Origin: Camelus dromedarius
Taxonomy: Eukaryota
Length of the DNA: 64,000 nucleotides
Reading direction: 5' to 3'
Assembly: GCF_036321535.1 (NCBI RefSeq)
Contig: NC_087436.1
Location: 60,142,001-60,206,000 of the forward strand
The position numbers and the translations under genes were made by a program. The notes beneath the pieces are model-generated. The model worked only from the letters and a program-made list of their open reading frames with translations. It did no database searches and was not told the origin of the DNA. Positions 2,206 to 53,064 of the stretch are shown here, one piece after another. The stretch's first letter is position 1. Each line of letters starts with the position of its first letter.

Positions 2206-2488
2206 GTTTATGCTGAGGAGAAAAAGATATGAACAATTTGTCATCTCTTATTTGACCATTTTTTAAATTCTTAAAGTAATTAAACCAAAATTAATACAAT
2301 TGGTATATAATAATTATACCAAAATAATTACAACTGCACATATTGCCAGGGCAATATAATATATTTAGTTATTTTGGTAAATTATTATATACCAATTGTA
2401 TTAATTTTGGTTTAATTACTTCAAGAACTTAAAAATGGTCAAGTAAGAGATGACAAGTAGGTCATATCCTTTTCTCCTCAGCATAAAC
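2206..2488. repeat. Long imperfect inverted repeat (about 124-bp arms, short spacer)
   Basis: Left arm gtttatgctgaggagaaaa...ccaaaataatta is the reverse complement of right arm tagttattttgg...ttctcctcagcataaac, with about 10 differences by eye. Confidence 0.95.
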
Positions 2489-25668: not shown

Positions 25669-25811
25669 GGGGGAGGGGATAGCTCAATGGTAGAGATGCT
25701 GTTTAGCATGCACGAGGTCCTGGGTTCAATACCCAGTACCTCCATTAATTAACTAATTAATTAATTAATTTTTTAAAAACCTAATTACCTCCCCCCGAAA
25801 AAAATTTTTTT
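25669..25811 (+). mobile_element. tRNA-Ala-derived SINE (camelid vic-1 type)
   Basis: Head gggatagctcaatggtagag...ttagcatgcacgaggtcctgggttcaatacccagtacctcca resembles tRNA-Ala(AGC) with A and B boxes. Followed by a (TTAA)n linker and cctaattacctcccccc tail. Perfect 16-bp TSD aaaagattgttattta at 25652-25667 and 25812-25827. Confidence 0.9.
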
Positions 25812-28054
25812 AAAAGATTGTTATTTACGAAGATTAACTCCTATGAATTGTACGTGCATTGTTTCCTAATTAATGTCCAAAGTGTGCTTTTTATTGTGAA
25901 ACAATGGCCAAAAGTGTGTTTTCATTATTGAATATTCTGATTCTAGAGGAAAATCCACCAACATAATAATGAAAATGAACTGTTTGCAAACTTCATTCCT
26001 CATAGAGACAAAACAAATGAAATACAAAACAAATGTTCTTTTCAGTATTATAGAGACCATTTTTGTTTCAAACAATGTATCTGATTCTTTGATTATTTGG
26101 AGGGGAGAGAGAGTGTGTGTGTGTGTGTGTGTATAGAAAATAATTTGAGGTTAAAAAAAAAAGCAGTAACAAAACCTGCAACTTAGATACAGTATTTCAT
26201 GGAAAATGTTAGGTGTTGCATTATTCTACTTTTGGCAAAGCTTGTTATCCCCACATGACCTTTCAATACCATTTGTAGAATGCCAGACTGAGCTCTCTAA
26301 TGCCCTGCAAGCTTTACTTCATTAAGAACTTTCTGTAATCTAGAGGAAACATGTTGTGAAGAACCTTAATCAGCCATCCAACAGAAGCAATGATTAATAG
26401 ACCCCAGGACTATTTGATCACTGGCATGCCATTCCTGGAGTTTGTAGTAGGATATCACCATATTCCTGCTGCCCCATTATCCTAGATAAACAATTGAAGT
26501 TATAGAAAGTACAAGGACTTCAAAGAAAGGTTTGACTTTTTGAGCTATAGTATTTTTTTTTTTTTTTTACAAACAATGATTTTGACAGCATTTCTCCATT
26601 TCTTATCAGCACCCTGGGATAATATAGGTTCTCATTACCAGCACCTTGTCTAGAAATACGCTGTTTCTGCTGTTGAAGGCTCTGATAAACATACAATCAC
26701 TTTAACAAACACTCTAGGGAGCAGGACACACAATTTTGATTAAGAAAACTGTTGAATATTAACTAGCAGTGCTCAGAGACAATAGCTGAGCAACTTGTCC
26801 TTGAAAAACATTACACCAAACCTATTCTCAAGGAAAAATGTTGGTGTTTGACAGCTGCCATAGCTCTGGAAACTGAAAATGCATCTATTATTGCAGTAGT
26901 AGGCTTTCAATAATATCACCATAATTAAGGTGCTGTCATTATTTTCAATTTAAAAGTTCTCCATTCACAGGTTAATAAATTCAGACATTAAAAAAAAATG
27001 CCACTCTGTAGTAGCATTTGGTAGCATTTCCATTTCCATAAACTCTCTAAGTCCCCAGTTTTAATGAATTGTTTTCCAGATCATTGTTTTGTTTTGTTTT
27101 AATCTTCCAAGAATTCACAAACTAAAGTTTTCTATGGTTGTGTATAGTAAAGATAAAAATGACTGCAATCTGTGTAATAAAGTAGTTAATACTTTCTTGA
27201 AAAAGCTATTGAGAAGTATTCCCACCAGTCTGTTCCAGTGTAAACTCTGAATTCAACCACTTGCAAACCTCACTTGCCTAAACAGGTTTAGAGTATAAAG
27301 GGTGAAAAATTATCTAGAAAAAGCTAAAAAATTTCTTATACATACTGTTAAAACAAAACAAGAACATTAAGTGCAAACAATAAAGAGAATCTTACTCATA
27401 AAAGTATATTTATCAATGCCATTTGTCATCCTATAAAGTTTTAAAAGCTCTTCTATAATTTTAACTACATTAGAACATTAACTACATTAGTATCTTCATG
27501 CAAGAGGCATAAATTCTTGCTAAAAACTAAAAAATGAGGAGGATAGGAAATATAAGGCAACTAAATTTTATTTCTCTCTGTACTACTTCCTGATCTTTAT
27601 TTTATCCATAGAGTTCTTTACAACATATGCTGGCAGGTAGCTCAGAACATAACAAAACACACATCTACATATGACGTTTAAATAGAATGACATTGTTAGG
27701 TTGTTTTTCATATACTAACATACTTTTTTTTAATTCTAATTTTAAAATTAAAAAATCAATTAAAAATAAAAAATGTATATTATACACGTACAGAAACATC
27801 CTAACATGTATGTGTTATGATAACCTTAAATGTATAAATACATTCCTTTGTGATGTTTCATAAATCACATATTTACATTTTTAAATAAAATTATATTCCT
27901 CATGCAATATACTGGAAAAAAGTTCTGAATGCAAATTCATTCTATAAATCCATACATTTGACACATCAAGAAGCTCATTCTGTCTGAAATGTACGTGTTT
28001 AAGTAATAACCAATCTCCATTTTCTTAATTAATGAAACACAAAAGCAAACGAAA

Positions 28055-29870: not shown

Positions 29871-30639
29871 TAAAACTTTCCATTATAATTGCAGGTAGGT
29901 TGGATATGCAAGCTTGTATTTCCAACAAGAATATTGTACTCTAACAAGAATATTGATTGCTTTATCCTAAAGGGGAAAATAGTTGACCTTAAGAAGAGTA
30001 TCCTGACCAGGACCTTGATACAAATAAATGTTTTTTCTTACTAGACTACTTGTAAGCAATTAAAGAAAAGAAAAAGAAATACTTCTGGTATAGAACTAAG
30101 AGTTATTTTGCCCCATGTTTTTTCAACTAAAAAATGCAGACAGGTTTTGCTTTCAGTTGATAAAGAATTCAGCAATGTAATATTCTCCTTAGTTAAAAAG
30201 TCTGTATTTTAAATGTTTTTAATGAGTAAAGATTTGTAAATCTTCATGCTATTTCCTTATTTTCCAGCTTTGAGACAACAGTGCCCTCCTTGTGAGTCAG
30301 GATTGGAAGCAAGAGTGAAAAAGAAATCACCCCACCAACAAAATCACTTTGTCCCTGTAAGCCTTTTGATATAAGTTGTATAAATTATTGATAGGGCTTC
30401 AAAGAAAGATTTGACTTTTTGAGCTCTAGTAATTATTATTATTTTACAAACAATGTAAATCAAACTGAAAGCACCCCTGCTGGATAGCAAAGTTGTTTAT
30501 ACTTACATAGTTTTTCTTTAATAATTAGCATGAGTCAATTCTTACGTAGATAAGTATACATTCATGATTTAAATTTTAAGTGCTCTTTATTATATCTTTC
30601 AAACTAAAATATCTAATCATTCTAAGGTTCAAGGGTTTA

Positions 30640-44790: not shown

Positions 44791-45796
44791 TTTTGAAGTT
44801 AAGAATACAGTGCTCCCCAATATCATCAATTTGTAGTTAAGTCAGATATGATATATTGCTGGTAAACAACTTTCTAATATGATTAAATATTTAATATAGT
44901 TTATTCAAGGTTGAAATTATTTCTAAAACTTTAAAAAGTCAATCCTCCAGGTGCATTTAACTATATGAGAAAGTCTCTACCCTTTTGAGTGAAATAGCAT
45001 AAAGAAAGCAAATGTGATATAAACAAAATAGAAACTCTAAAGTGCCTTAAAATGGAATTATCAACTTTTAAATATTCAGTAGTAATAAAAATATTTCCAA
45101 TCAAAAGTGTTGTATTATACGCTCAAATGATCAGTTGCACCACATATTTAATCAAACACAATTAATTTGTATATTGACGTATCTGACAACCCAAATACAT
45201 ACAGCTGCTTTTTGAGTAACCTTCAAAACTTGGGCTCTTTATAGTGAATATTTAGGAATTCAAAATGACAATATCTTACGGTAATTTAAAACTCTCTGGA
45301 CTATATATAAGACGCTTTGATTAAAGCTTTACAGACAAATCGAAGAGTCTCTAGAAGAAGGTGCCCAATGTGATGATACATCTTGAAAATTTTTTACTTA
45401 ATGAAAGCAGTATTTGATGAGAACCGTATTCAAATAGCCAAAGGGCTGACATCTGGTTGATGTCTGCACTCCACCAATATAAGTTAGGTAAGTTACTGGA
45501 AGGAGTCTGTCTCATTAAAGAAGTATTGTGTTTTCTCCCACCTCTAAAATTATTTGACTTTTTTTTTTTTTTTTACTCCTTCTATTCTGTCTGTTGACAT
45601 GCTCAAAAGACTTTGGAACTCTTTAAGGATAAGAAAAAGCAAAGACAAAAACAAAACACAATGAACTTCCTTGATTATCTTATTGCTCTCAAGAACTTAT
45701 CAATAAACTTTATAAAAATATATTTCTAATACTATCATCCTTATCTAATATTATTCAATAACTCTAAATCACCCATAGAATGAAATTCAAGTTTCT

Positions 45797-45965
45797 CGTG
45801 GCAGATTACACTTTCCAAAGACGGTTGCAAGAATACTCTCATTCCACCATCTCTTCATCAATGTGATTTTGTCACTCACTTCCTTTGGAAGCAGAGTCAA
45901 CCTGCCCTCTTCCTGAATTGGGGCTGGACTTAGTGACTTTCTTGTATTCAACAAAATACAAAGGA
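45797..45965 (+). mobile_element. MLT1 (MaLR) LTR 5' fragment
   Basis: gtggcagattacactttccaaagacgg...tcctgaattggggctggacttagtgactt. Confidence 0.65.
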
Positions 45966-47050
45966 TTTTATGGAGATGTCAAGGTCAACCAGGAGCTCTT
46001 TGAGCAACACCCCCAGATCTCTATTCTTACTCACTTCAAATGTGAGTGTTCCAGTTATGTAATCCTTCTCCTTCCCTTGAATTGCAAGAATGGCACAAGA
46101 CTAACCATGGCTTGGATGAACCAAGAGGCATCAACAATAGAGATACGACTTACAAAAGGTTAAAAACACAGAAGGGATTTGAGAAACCCACAAATTTCTA
46201 GGCTTACTGGACTGAAAGCAGAATTGAAGATCTGCTGATCTTACAACAAATGGAGGTTTCAAATGCTTTTATTCTTTCTAGTAATAGCTTAAAAGAATTC
46301 TTCAAGAAGTTTATTTGTATTCCAGTGATGCACAGAAAAGCTACTAAATTCCTAGCCACTGTTATATTGTTATGCAAAGTAAAATGTCTATGAAACTGGA
46401 CTTTTTTTAAACATTTGGTGGAACATTTGATGGAAATGTAAAATGTTGAATGTGTAAGAATACACACATGACAATTTAAATTAAACAATATATCTTTCCC
46501 ATAAGAGAATATGATTATCATAAAGCTAATTAAGTCATATAACAAAAGCATGACTGTGAAAAATAGAATTATTTTGATAGTAATCAATGACAGAATTAAA
46601 AGTTGAAGTAAAATATTTCAGTTCAAGAATATATTTTTTAAATAATTATATTTTTTTAGCCACTGAATTTATAAAAAGAAAATTTGGAAAAGAGAACTAT
46701 GGCATTGTTAATACATGCATATATGTTTCTCGTTATTTAAGAAAATCATGAAAGATTCTGGAAAGCTTATTAAATAATGTTTACATGAAAACAAATGCTT
46801 GTTTTCACGGTGTCAGTGGGATCTGAATACCAATTCTCTGCTAAATGTTAACTCGTAGTAGGCACCTGAGCTCCACAAAAACAATTTCACTAATTTTACA
46901 ACTTTTACTTTTTGACCATTAACTAAAGCTTAATATAAGTAATGAAATGTTTTAAATAATAATTTTAAATATCTTACACTTATCAAAACTACTGCCTAAC
47001 AAAATCAAACAATCATTGAGTTTTGCCATACGTGTCATTAGAAATGATAG

Positions 47051-47265
47051 CAGGGATAGACTGGGATTTCAAAATTGTAGAATAGATAAACCAGATTATA
47101 CTATATAGCACAGGGAAATATACACAAAACATTATGGTAGCTCAGAGAGAAAAAAATGTGACAATGAGTGTGTATATGTCCATGTATGACTGAAAAATTG
47201 TGCTGAACACTGGAATTTGACACATTGTAAAATGATTATAAATCAATAAAAAATGTTAAAAAAAA
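47051..47265 (+). mobile_element. Young L1 3' end with TSD
   Basis: L1 3'UTR with aataaa and poly(A). Perfect TSD agaaatgatag at 47040-47050 and 47266-47276. Confidence 0.9.
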
Positions 47266-49859
47266 AGAAATGATAGACTACCTCAAACTGCACAGAAAAT
47301 AGTTATTAGCAACGCAGATGAAGACAATTATTTAAACTTTATAATTCAAACTTAAGAAACAACATGCTGAATGCACAGTCAATTTTAAAGCATTAATTTT
47401 TCATTATACTTGCATAGATTTTTCAAAGGTAAGTTCTCTGAAACAACAGCTGATGTTCTTAAAACAATGTAAACAGACAAGACTGAAGCGTAGACCACTT
47501 GCTTGCAGGTGCAGGTCAAAGAATGAAAGGGGAAATGGCTGTTCAATTTCCTTCTTTTTAACAAAAGACCTCTCCCCTACATAGCTGTTTCTTGGGCTAT
47601 TCAAAACAATGCAAACAGAGCATGGATGGGCAAAGAAGAGATTCCCCTGGTTGGCAGTAAGCAGGAAGTCTAATTTTTTAAATTATCTTAAGATTACAGC
47701 ACGGAAAAACAACATGATACTAACAGAGGAAAGCTGCAGCAATTTTAATAATACCAGAGAAACTAACTTGGAAAAAAAATGACAATTAAAAAAAAACAAA
47801 AAAACCCATAGACTGAGATGGTTTTACTCAATCTTAGAGGGCAAAAAAATTAAATTAAATGTGATAGGCCTTTAGAGATCACAGATAAAGATAATTTTTT
47901 TAAGTGATTAAAATAGGATTATACCAAAATTTTAAAATCAACAACAATAGACAAACACAATGAGCTTAATCATTCAGAGAAATTTAGTTTGGAAAGGAAG
48001 TCCTAAGGATTCAATTTGGCCCAAAGTAAAGGAAGACTGAAATTCAAAGTGAAATACCACACACACTGAAAATACTTTATTGTACATTCTATAATTCTTA
48101 AGTATAATTAGGACTGTCTTAGGGTCCCACTGATTAGATTCATAGGAAAGCCAGTATTATAATTTAAGCAAGGTCCTTAGCTAAAAGTTGAGGGGTTTTG
48201 CATCATGGACTCCTCTGATAATCAGAACATAGGCAGTTCAAAGAGGAGCACAGCCAGACATCCACTTCATGCAAGAGAGTCTGGTGTGGTTAGGCTGCTG
48301 TCACTTCTCCTTAACCTAAGTGCTGGATGCTGTGGGTTCTGCTCCTCCATCATCTGCCCTACTCTGCCGCTCACTGCTAAATCTTGGTATCATTTTCCCA
48401 GATGCCTATCTATGCCAGTACTTCAAAGAAGGGTGCTCCAAGGGCAAATCCATGCCCTTGTGCTAGGTTTGGCTCTGGGTGCCCCTCACTTGAGTTCTTA
48501 TGACCAGAACACTTAGTATTTATTCTTTTTTGTATCCACATTGCTATCTGTTTCAGTGGATCAGCCTTTACAGCTTCTTCATACAGTGAAGGGAAATAAT
48601 AAGGAACAGAAGACTGTCCAAACTGTAATGAGCGCCACTGCTTAACACAGGAAGGCCTCTGGGCATCTTCTGGAAGGACAAAATAAGAAGACCGGAAACT
48701 GATATCAGACAAATATTTTCATATATTGTCAATACAGAGCCTAAAACAATACATAAAAAAGAAAAATCAACTGCTTTGTAATAAACAATATTTAAAGCAA
48801 AGTCATGTGGCAAATCATTTTATCCTGTCTCTACAAAAGAATATCTACCTGTGAAATCATAGCTGTTACTGAAGACAAACTGTAAATAAGTATTTTGAGA
48901 GTGTTAATTTTAAAATTAAAAAATAAAATAATGATGAAAAATTTAGAGTCCCCTGTAATATTTTTTTGAAAATCTGTTAAAAACCAGTGGATATTCAAAC
49001 ACAGATTGCAAATATTCCTGGGCCTTTTAAATTACAGAATATGTAATGAGGTACAAGCAAAATACTGTGCCTGTCATTTATCAATTTGCAAGAGTCATTA
49101 GAAATCACATAAGCAGCTGTGGTTTACGAAAAATACATTTCCATAGATGAGGAGATAGGTAGTAATTTCAGTGAATAAATGAATAAATGTCATCGTCTAA
49201 CCAAATGTGACAGATTGGCTATGTAATTAGAAAGACATAATTAAAGTATTCCTAAATTCCGGAAGTAGTGATAAAACACTCTTCATGCACATCTTACATA
49301 GACTGGCTAAAGTAGAAAAATACATTAGGGTAGTGCTCTCAAGTTATATGTTCCACAATCAGACTCCTTAGCCCAGCAAGTTTGGGAAGAGTGGGTTATG
49401 CAAAATTAGAAAGGTTTCTTTACAAGACACTCAGGAAAATTTAGTATTTGTGACTCACCCAGCAGGGTTATCTAGTTGTTGACACTTACTTAAACCGAAA
49501 AATTCTATTTCCTCATAATAACATGAAAAATTACCCTTCGGCTGAATATTCTTTTGGAAATATTTTGTCCAATGTTCTTAGAAAATACAGTAAGAATGAC
49601 CATTATCACACTCCTTAAACTGCATAGTGACCATCCTTATCAGTAACATGAAATATATTACAAACTGGTAATCTGCTCGACAGCTGGAACTCTTATGATC
49701 ATTTCAGTAAGTTATGTTTTAAAATCTAGCAGTCCTTATTGTTAGATATTCTTTCCTTCCAACTACATAAACCCTGCTAAACTTTAAGGACTCAGAACAA
49801 GTTTTACATATTCCTTATATGTCTACACTTGTTTGATCCAAACTTTCTTTGACCATCCC

Positions 49860-50170
49860 TAATGCTAATCTTAACCAACAATTTCCAATACAGTAGCCAC
49901 CAGCCATACATGGCTATTGGCGATTTAAATGTGACTAGTGCAAACTGAGATGTGTTTAAGTGTAAATACATACCGATTTCAAAAATTTAGTAATAAAAAT
50001 GTCTCATTAATAATTTTATATTGATTACACATTGAAATGGTAATATCTCAGATATATTAGGTTAAATAAATGTATTATTACAGATAATTCCACCTGTTTC
50101 TTTTTACTTTTTAATGGCTACTATAAAACTTAAAATTACACATGCGTTTCGCACTATACTTCTATCCAGT
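49860..50170. mobile_element. MER33-like hAT-Charlie
   Basis: tccaatacagtagccaccagccatacatggctattg...aactgagatgtg...aattccacctgtttctttttactttttaatg. Confidence 0.8.
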
Positions 50171-50259
50171 AATAGGCTACCAGTAGTCAGAACAGAAGTG
50201 TGTGCGTGCACGTGTGTGTGTATGTGTCTGTTAAGGTGGGAGTGAAGGGGCAGAGTTAA

Positions 50260-50465
50260 TACTGTAATGAAGAAACAGTGTTGGAATCAGACACCAGGAA
50301 TGTGAACCCTAATTCTTCCACTTGCTGTGCAATATTGAGCAAAGTATTTAAATGAATCCAGGTTTTTTTCCTGATAGAAGCAAATACCAAGGTTGATAAG
50401 CATTAGGAATAATGTACATAAGGAGACTAGCACATCATTTTCAACATAAGGTAATTATTATTACT
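50260..50465 (+). mobile_element. MIR
   Basis: ttggaatcagacaccagg...ccacttgctgtgcaatattgagcaaagtattta. Confidence 0.55.
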
Positions 50466-53064
50466 GTAAATAAATATGAAGAAACACAAAAATCAATCAA
50501 AATCCAAGCTCATAACTTTTACAAGTGGTAGGACTTAATGACCCTACAGTTCTGAGGAATTCTGCCTTGCTATTGCTCTTAGTTTCTGAAAAATAAAACT
50601 CAGAAGGATTATAGCCCAGTGTACGATAAAGAAGAAACCATAGCAACATTATGAGTGGCCTATTGTGTTGACTAATACACACATACAAATTCATAACATG
50701 CAGTGTTCCAAACCTATCACTGTTTTAAAAAACAATAAGTGAACAATTAATTCTAACAGTTCATAAAAGCAAAACACAAGTATGGAAAAATACAAAGGGA
50801 CTTGTTATTCATACAGGAGCCAGAGGGTATTCCAAACTACACAAAATGTAGTATATTATACTAACTGCATCTTTATGCTTGACAAAGACTAAATACCAGT
50901 AGTTCAGAGTCTTGGAAACCAAAGCTCTGCCTATTATCAATTAGTATATTTGAAATTAGTTCACTGTTTAAGAAAAAGTACTATACTGAATGAATTTAGC
51001 ACTGATTATCCTAAGTCTCCCTCATACATTTTTTTTTTGTTCAGTTTTACTTTCCTTTAAAAAAGAGGAAAAGGAGAGGGGTGGAAAAGTTAGTCATAGT
51101 ACAAGTTGGGTTTGCATAAATTTTTAATTATAAAATATTGTTTCTATTAGTCAGGAAAATTATCTCATTTCAACAAAATTATTAACCATGGTAGCAATTA
51201 TAAAGTAAGTTTGATTAGACCAAATTTGGATAATACTTTCGGGGAGAACAAAAGGGGTAATTAAATAATTAACTAGGATTTTTAGCAAATTTGATTATAG
51301 ACTTTAGATCTTCTTTATTTGAACAAAAGGGAAATAATAAGCAGAAGTTCAATATGACTTGAAAAATCAATTCTTCTCTTCTAGCATTAATATAATAAAT
51401 GTTACAATATTTATGAATTTGGCTTATGATATTTTAATTAAATTTTCTATGTTAAAATGTTATTTTTAAGTTTAGAAATCTCAGGAAAAGAAAGTAAAAC
51501 ATTAAAATTACAAACCTATTTCAAAATCAGTATTTTTAAGCCTGAAGATTGCTGATTTCAGCAGATACATCAATGGATTCCTTACAAAAGATCAGGATGA
51601 TCTCTGAATTTCTGTGTTATCAGACACTCTTGAAAAAGTCAAAGATACATAAAGAGATTAGTAAAAAGACTGACAATTTGAACTTTTCTAAGTAAAAGAT
51701 GAACCTGTTGAAAAATGAGTTTAAAGTTGTAATCAAACTAAAGATAACATAAAGATAGTCACAGTAAATGGAAAGATTATAATAATCTAAAAGGTTGCAG
51801 GGCTTTTATGCTAGTTAAAACTATCCTGTTCATACAAACCTTGCAGATAGATATTTCTGAAAAGAATCTATTGATTCTTCATCACTTTTTTCAAAGAAAG
51901 AGCTCTTTTTGGACAGATGTGTTAGTGCATTACTATCAAAAGGTCTCTTACATGATTGATTTGAAATAGTTCTTTGAAATTTAAAGGTCAATAAGCATCT
52001 CTTCTAGTGCTAACTGTAGATGGTGCATTGAAGTTTTCTGCAAAAGCTGAATCCTTTTAGAGTTGAAATTTGCCAAGAAGAAGTTGACTGAAATTTCATG
52101 TTAGACCTCCCACAGGGTCTCATTTTGCAAAAGCAAGTGTCAAAAAACATTTCGCCATGGTATAGAAAGATTTTTAAAATCTGTTTCTGTTTCTATTATA
52201 ACATAGTACCAATCCTGTATGTTACAGCAACTCATATTTCACCTTTGCCTCTGAAAAAAGCTAGTGACTTCAAATGCTCAAATACTTTATACACCATTGC
52301 TTCAGCTATTGGAAGTATAAAACAGTGGGCTAGGAGTACTGAATTTTTTAAAGCTTCTCTTTTATTAAATGGTGATAGGAATGCCTATAAACTAATTTTA
52401 AAAATATACACCTAAAAGCTGGCTAAAAACAACTCGATTTGGGATAGTTCATTGATTATTTTAAGGCAGTTAGCATTGACAATACAGTGTTTCCATTTCA
52501 ACCTTACTCATATTTTATGAGAACATTTCCTACATTCCTGAAATTCACAAAACTTAGTGTACTTTCAAAAGACAATCTCTAGATTTTCTTCATAAGAGTA
52601 ACCAAATTACTAAGATTATACTAAGACTGTAAGAATTACTTCCTCTTATGCTATATAAGATTTTTCTGATCTGCTCTTAGTTTAGCTAGTAAGTTTAGAG
52701 CTTCCATGTTTTTTCAGTTTTTGAAAAACAAAGTGCACTTTTATTTAAACAACCCATTGAACTTTGGCCTTCCAGCTATTAACCAGTCATAAAGTAATAG
52801 TATAAATCAAAACCAAAAAATGAGATCATATATTCCACAGCTCAATAAACTCTATATTTATATACCAACTTTGTATATACACAGTACAAGTGATTTAGCT
52901 GAACTCAGACTTTAAAGAATTTATGTTTTAAAGCTGGGGGACATTCAAAATACCATTAAGTCTCAACCTCTAGTCATTTAGAGTATAGTAAGATGCAGTA
53001 TACATAACTGATCTATTTATCTATATAAGTACCACTAATAAAGTTCAAACTAACAAGTATGTAA

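What the first reader, a model, noticed from the sequence alone, without database searches (positions are those of the whole stretch)
45280..52537. Chain of phase-compatible minus-strand exon relics resembling a multi-RGS-domain (RGS22/RGSL1-like) gene
Seen in the sequence: six non-repeat segments bounded by AG/GT on the minus strand. (1) 52537-52508: cactaa..tttcag / gtaagg, ECRKCSHKI*. (2) 52384-51840: tttatag / gtttgt. (3) 51628-51516: tactaat..tttttcaag / gtttgt. (4) 48698-48513. (5) 46387-46208: tttcatag / gtaagc. (6) 45463-45280: ctaac..gcag / gtaaga. From segment 2 onward every junction can be read in phase 2; the lengths of segments 3-5 are 113 (114 if one base was lost), 186 and 180. 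Inference from recalled family motifs: AEAMVYKVFEHLKSLAFF has the spacing of the RGS terminal helices (AQxxIYxLMExDSYxRFL). DEESIDSFQKYLSAR..SEIILIFCKE resembles an RGS start (FxxFL..SEENLxFW). Later segments resemble successive RGS22 stretches in the same order. The similarity is far too low for RGS22 or RGSL1 orthologs, so this would be a separate paralog, disabled here (a unitary pseudogene).
Basis: partly seen in the sequence, partly recalled or inferred. Interest (0 to 1): 0.8.

Follow-up and report, generated by a model that had tools for sequence, protein, structure and literature searches.

The report
Unproven RGS-like gene relic in mammal
Six exon-shaped pieces of this mammal's DNA were proposed as the remains of a dead relative of the cilia gene RGS22, but their splice signals are ordinary and their likeness to RGS22 is close to chance, so the stretch is likely plain non-coding DNA, with a very old gene relic still possible.

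Summary
The six segments, their AG/GT ends, lengths and translations are in the sequence as described. Nothing shows they are exons. Their splice sites are of a strength found about 1-70 times per kb per strand, with no excess on the minus strand. No RGS hit came from Pfam, PDB, the ESM Atlas or a 1.8-billion-protein search. Profiles built from retrieved RGS22 proteins score the spliced chain like random chains (p 0.2-0.4); a decayed copy of RGS22 itself would mostly have been seen. The only homolog found (P0001) is as alike beyond the proposed donor as inside the exon (22/34 vs 20/32). For the relic: few stop codons (8 vs 16, p 0.009) and one RGS-sized sub-chain at z 2.6, both after selection by eye; my tests have little power for a distant paralog. 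Verdict: likely chance pseudo-exons (0.6); decayed distant RGS22-type paralog 0.3. The scan noted similar unproven relics in three other vertebrate genomes; no sequence link to this window was found. No RNA junctions or synteny could be examined.

The parts
52508..52537 (-). Segment 1, 30 nt, AG/GT-bounded, ends in a stop
   Evidence: acceptor 5.4, donor 4.6 bits; RGS22 profile p 0.87
51840..52384 (-). Segment 2, 545 nt; frame 0 has 5 stops and holds both quoted motifs
   Evidence: acceptor -1.3 bits; p 0.39 whole, last 61 nt p 0.017 nominal
51516..51628 (-). Segment 3, 113 nt; needs an assumed frameshift to join motif frame and phase
   Evidence: p 0.29; hhalign 0.07%
50290..50370 (-).
   Evidence: acceptor 7.6 bits with CTAAT; 17.7 bits against RGS22 domain 2, p 0.012 nominal, found by search
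48513..48698 (-). Segment 4, 186 nt, open in frame 1; weak donor; homolog P0001 runs on past it to 48413
   Evidence: sub-threshold Pfam DUF5529 hit E 0.0035
46208..46387 (-). Segment 5, 180 nt, open in frame 1 inside a 137-codon stop-free run
   Evidence: p 0.28; no PDB, Atlas or hhalign hit
45280..45463 (-). Segment 6, 184 nt, 2-3 stops in every frame
   Evidence: p 0.26; hhalign 0.15%

Best explanation
The stretch is AT-rich mammalian DNA whose six AG/GT-bounded segments are likely chance pseudo-exons that never formed one gene, and the RGS likeness likely comes from picking frames and borders by eye in DNA whose translations are rich in F, L, I, K and Y. Shown: the sites, frames and profile scores match background. 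Inferred: the DNA drifts neutrally (one homolog, equal identity on both sides of a proposed splice site) and has no coding past.
For: Splice sites at background strength and density on both strands. Open symmetric pseudo-exons are common. No RGS hit in Pfam for 10 segment frames and 24 tiled frames, none in PDB for 5 queries, none in the Atlas for 2. RGS22 profile: whole-window spliced, frameshift-aware alignment scores 43.0 on minus against 39.5, 37.5, 29.7 in three controls; joined six segments 16.9 vs null 16.4, p 0.34; for the two 6-kb tiles holding segments 2-4, 70 of 90 control tiles score as high. P0001 matches 20 of 32 codons inside segment 4 and 22 of 34 beyond its donor, and differs in frame upstream. 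F+L+I+K+Y make up 40% of background translation.
Against: Stop codons are fewer than in random segments (8 vs 16.3, p 0.009). End of segment 2 + 3 + 4 scores z 1.8-2.6 against all four RGS22 domains and the pooled profile (p 0.005-0.049 vs random chains; p 0.065-0.09 vs shuffled profiles). Segments 5+6 give p 0.03-0.046 vs shuffled profiles and both sub-chains are one RGS domain long. A simulated decayed distant domain would score no better than observed, so the negatives are weak.
Confidence: 0.6

Rival explanations
1. Unitary pseudogene: the segments are decayed exons of a distant RGS22-type gene with tandem RGS-like domains (end of segment 2 + 3 + 4 one domain, 5 + 6 the next), dead before the split from the species that gave P0001; the parent would have worked like RGS22, as a non-GAP scaffold in motile cilia or sperm.
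For: Stop depletion; z up to 2.6 for one sub-chain; domain-sized sub-chains in plausible order; an extra RGS-start-like piece at 50370; intact canonical RGS domains score only 17-28 bits against an RGS22 profile, so a decayed distant paralog could hide.
Against: No test passes once selection is allowed for; segments 5+6 against RGS22 domain 2 give z 0.2; junctions do not fall on RGS22 exon borders inferred from skipped-exon models; no intact parent among 10 long hits, all four-domain RGS22 types; needs an assumed frameshift and a weak donor.
Confidence: 0.3
2. Some segments are real exons of something else: a relic of an unrelated gene, or a non-coding transcript (or the intron of a long gene) expressed in reproductive tissue.
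Against: No protein homolog other than P0001; the DUF5529 hit is below its cut-off (17.7 vs 25 bits) and absent for P0001; RNA runs can hold genomic DNA.
Confidence: 0.1

Closest known systems
RGS22 (four divergent RGS domains; radial-spoke component; PMC13443885; PDB 9fqr_Ha)
   Same: Only a by-eye pattern: two RGS-sized stretches with hydrophobic spacing like RGS domain starts and ends; best sub-chain z 2.6.
   Different: No significant profile match; scores far below a decayed RGS22 copy; junctions not at inferred RGS22 exon borders.
RGS domain, Pfam PF00615
   Same: Short motif spacing in segment 3 (SE..L.F..E, with C where RGS domains have W; consensus recalled).
   Different: No hit at E up to 10 or 0.1.
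RGSL1 (recalled as a multi-RGS paralog)
   Different: No RGSL1 sequence was retrieved, so it was not compared.
Pfam DUF5529 (PF17669; recalled as the C11orf91 family)
   Same: 28-residue match around YFPSLY in segment 4, E 0.0035.
   Different: Below the curated cut-off, 28 of 185 positions, not shared by P0001; treated as chance.

Membership tests
RGS domain (PF00615) | Match to the family profile above its cut-off (23.9 bits) | tested here: not met
   single genomic frames only, spliced pieces could not be scanned
RGS domain (PF00615) | Nine-helix RGS fold | not tested
   no fold job sent: no alignment depth and no contiguous reading of a whole domain
RGS22 (ortholog or recent copy) | Significant similarity to RGS22 domains | tested here: not met
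   segments 4-6 score 13-14.5 bits, null 99th percentile 18.4; simulated copy at 0.35 changes per site exceeds it in 83% of pieces
RGS22-type multi-RGS paralog | Tandem RGS-like domains in order | tested here: inconclusive
   z 2.6 and 0.8 against the pooled domain profile; expected z 0.7-2.7 if real
RGS22-type multi-RGS paralog | Exon borders shared with RGS22 | tested here: inconclusive
   none coincide in computed alignments, but borders rest on single skipped-exon models and the alignments are unreliable
RGSL1 | Similarity to RGSL1 | not tested
   no RGSL1 among the 130 listed hits
Unitary pseudogene | Intact ortholog at the syntenic place in an outgroup | not testable with these tools
   no genome held; protein searches found none
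Unitary pseudogene | Conservation bounded by exon borders | tested here: not met
   one homolog, one border: 20/32 inside, 22/34 outside; uninformative if the gene died before the two species split
Unitary pseudogene | Splice signals above background | tested here: not met
Unitary pseudogene | Disabling stops and frameshifts | tested here: met
   equally true of any non-coding DNA

The most novel reading that the evidence does not exclude
Placental mammals carry the fossil of an undescribed third RGS22/RGSL1-type gene with tandem RGS-like domains, a ciliary or sperm scaffold that is intact in some non-placental vertebrates and died before the placental radiation.
Probability: 0.3. Interest if true: 0.55.

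Novelty: not a real feature. Interest (0 to 1): 0.17.

Why it matters
As ordinary DNA it matters only as a warning: RGS-like helical patterns and phase-compatible AG/GT chains are easy to see in AT-rich sequence. If the relic is real it would mark an unreported ancient gene loss in a family now tied to the ciliary radial spoke (PMC13443885), point to an uncharacterised gene to look for in other vertebrates, and allow one to ask what cilia or sperm structure changed with its loss.

Tried and rejected
Own genome: none held. Word-index search with segment 4: 0 of 5 candidates. PDB with 5 segment frames: only E 0.08-0.9 unrelated chains. ESM Atlas: no usable hit for segments 4 and 5. HMMER scan of six frames with a 26-sequence RGS22 model: best 7.1 bits, composition-driven, plus strand. 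First spliced alignment with cheap introns produced nonsense micro-exons and was discarded. tblastn of 11 RGS22 proteins: best E 1.5. In-script hhalign timed out. Search for long multi-RGS paralogs (1632-4660 aa): 10 of 4826 candidates, all RGS22 types; weak negative. DUF5529 rejected as sub-threshold. Motif counts use patterns tailored to the window and are circular; not used. Sequence look-ups in earlier findings: 0 look-alike windows. Paper searches: DUF5529 0, 'RGS22-like' 0, a recalled zebrafish gene name 0, gene-loss combination 0; RGS22+RGSL1 5 papers, listing only, none on a paralog. No fold or complex job was sent.

Full report
Setting. The window is 28-40% GC with LINE-like fragments and a tRNA-derived SINE head at 25673-25744. 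The repeat shapes suggest a camelid (recalled, not tested). No whole genome is held, so synteny could not be examined. Pfam finds nothing above cut-off in 24 minus-strand frames tiling 38.5-40.5, 41-43 and 44-55 kb; the rest of the window and the plus strand were not scanned against Pfam.

Observation. The six segments, flanks, lengths and quoted peptides are there. The phase-2 chain needs one assumed lost base in segment 3, a weak donor for segment 4 (AA/gtgttc, -0.9 bits, with a 9.1-bit donor 23 nt further on) and a weak acceptor for segment 2 (-1.3 bits) (scores from my own approximate matrices). Sites as good as these occur 1-71 times per kb per strand, and AG-GT pairs are as common on plus as on minus in 45-53 kb (90 vs 96 at 3/3 bits; 23 vs 20 at 5/5). 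Symmetric pseudo-exons of 150-200 nt with an open frame occur at 38 minus and 23 plus places. Stop codons are depleted in the best frames of segments 2-6 (8 vs 16.3 +/- 3.4, p 0.009), a figure inflated by selection.

Database searches. Pfam: 1 of 10 segment frames had any hit, DUF5529 at 17.7 bits against a cut-off of 25. PDB: no RGS chain for 5 queries. Atlas: no usable hit for 2 queries. Segment 4 against 1.84 billion representatives gave one protein, P0001 (78 aa, E 3e-4, single unnamed 1277-nt contig). An intact mammalian ortholog of this segment would be expected to appear (inference). P0001 looks like an ORF called on related genomic DNA of another mammal (inference): it matches 20 of 32 codons inside segment 4 and 22 of 34 beyond the proposed donor, and its upstream part follows another frame. 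That fits neutral DNA in both species, and does not separate never-coding from long-dead.

Direct test against RGS22. A short motif scan gave RGS22 exons in metagenome contigs (they hit PDB 9fqr_Ha at E 1.5e-30), and these retrieved RGS22 proteins (120 listed of 895; 10 long forms). I built models from 26 vertebrate proteins, from 18 vertebrate and invertebrate proteins and from 42 pooled domains. Plain HMMER found nothing. Single segments gave p 0.25-0.87; only the last 61 nt of segment 2 (0.017) and an extra piece at 50370 (0.012) were nominal. The joined six scored 16.9 vs 16.4 +/- 2.1 for 500 random chains (p 0.34; four other joinings 0.21-0.39). hhalign gave 0.05-0.26% for 5 of 5 comparisons. 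Forcing whole domains, the end of segment 2 + 3 + 4 reached z 1.8-2.6 (p 0.005-0.049) and 5 + 6 z -0.3 to 1.0; against shuffled profiles p was 0.065-0.09 and 0.03-0.046. An unbiased spliced scan gave the two tiles holding segments 2-4 a score of 1.0, reached by 70 of 90 control tiles.

Power. A simulated RGS22 copy decayed by 0.35 changes per site exceeds the null 99th percentile in 83% of exon-sized pieces (44% at 0.5); segments 4-6 all fall below the 95th. So this is not a decayed RGS22. A held-out RGS22 domain, standing for a distant paralog, falls to z 0.7-2.7 after 0.2-0.35 decay, and intact canonical RGS domains score only 17-28 bits against the RGS22 profile. The observed values therefore fit both chance and a distant relic. 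RGS22 exon borders inferred from skipped-exon models do not coincide with the junctions in the computed alignments; this is weak. The search for long paralogs returned only four-domain RGS22 types. RGSL1 was not retrieved.

Expression. Five runs on record or guessed as RNA hold part of 45000-53000, four labelled reproductive-system at 40-54% of words.

Mechanism and verdict. Most likely (0.6) the segments do nothing and are pseudo-exons picked from an AT-rich background in which F, L, I, K and Y are 40% of translated residues. A dead distant RGS22-type gene is the main rival (0.3); its parent would have worked like RGS22, whose four RGS domains lack the G-alpha contact residues and which stabilises radial spokes (PMC13443885; listing and nine passages seen; supplements not read). 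Exons of something else: 0.1.

Literature and earlier notes. Searches for 'RGS22-like', DUF5529, a recalled zebrafish gene name and a gene-loss combination gave 0 papers each; RGS22 with RGSL1 gave 5, seen as listing only. Three earlier scan notes report similar unproven multi-RGS relics in two mammals and a ray; four sequence look-ups found no link to this window, so they are neither support nor shown to be the same locus.

Noticed in passing
window 2206-2488: Near-perfect palindrome: nested inverted arms of 58 nt (91%) and 56 nt (96%) with 64 nt between the inner arms, probably a recent inverted duplication.
   Followed up: no
window 25673-25744: Rfam tRNA match (31 bits) that is the head of a tRNA-derived SINE, recalled as camelid type.
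   Followed up: partly
window 50370-50290, minus: Exon-like piece with a strong acceptor and an open start (EKNLDSFKYFAQYCTASG); best local match to RGS22 domain 2 in 44-54 kb, nominal only.
   Followed up: partly
window 39553-39322 and 42096-42044, minus: Two further AG/GT pairs with good scores (6.8/9.2 and 10.2/8.8 bits); no Pfam hit.
   Followed up: partly
window 26514-26566 and 30393-30445: 53-nt direct repeat, 87% identical, 3.9 kb apart.
   Followed up: no
proteins P0122-P0126: RGS22 models of 1705-1803 aa in horse, kangaroo rat, tamandua, naked mole-rat and cave fish carry about 550-630 extra N-terminal residues, with a weak F-box match in the two mammalian ones scanned; recalled as read-through from the neighbour FBXO43.
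   Followed up: partly
   Followed up: no
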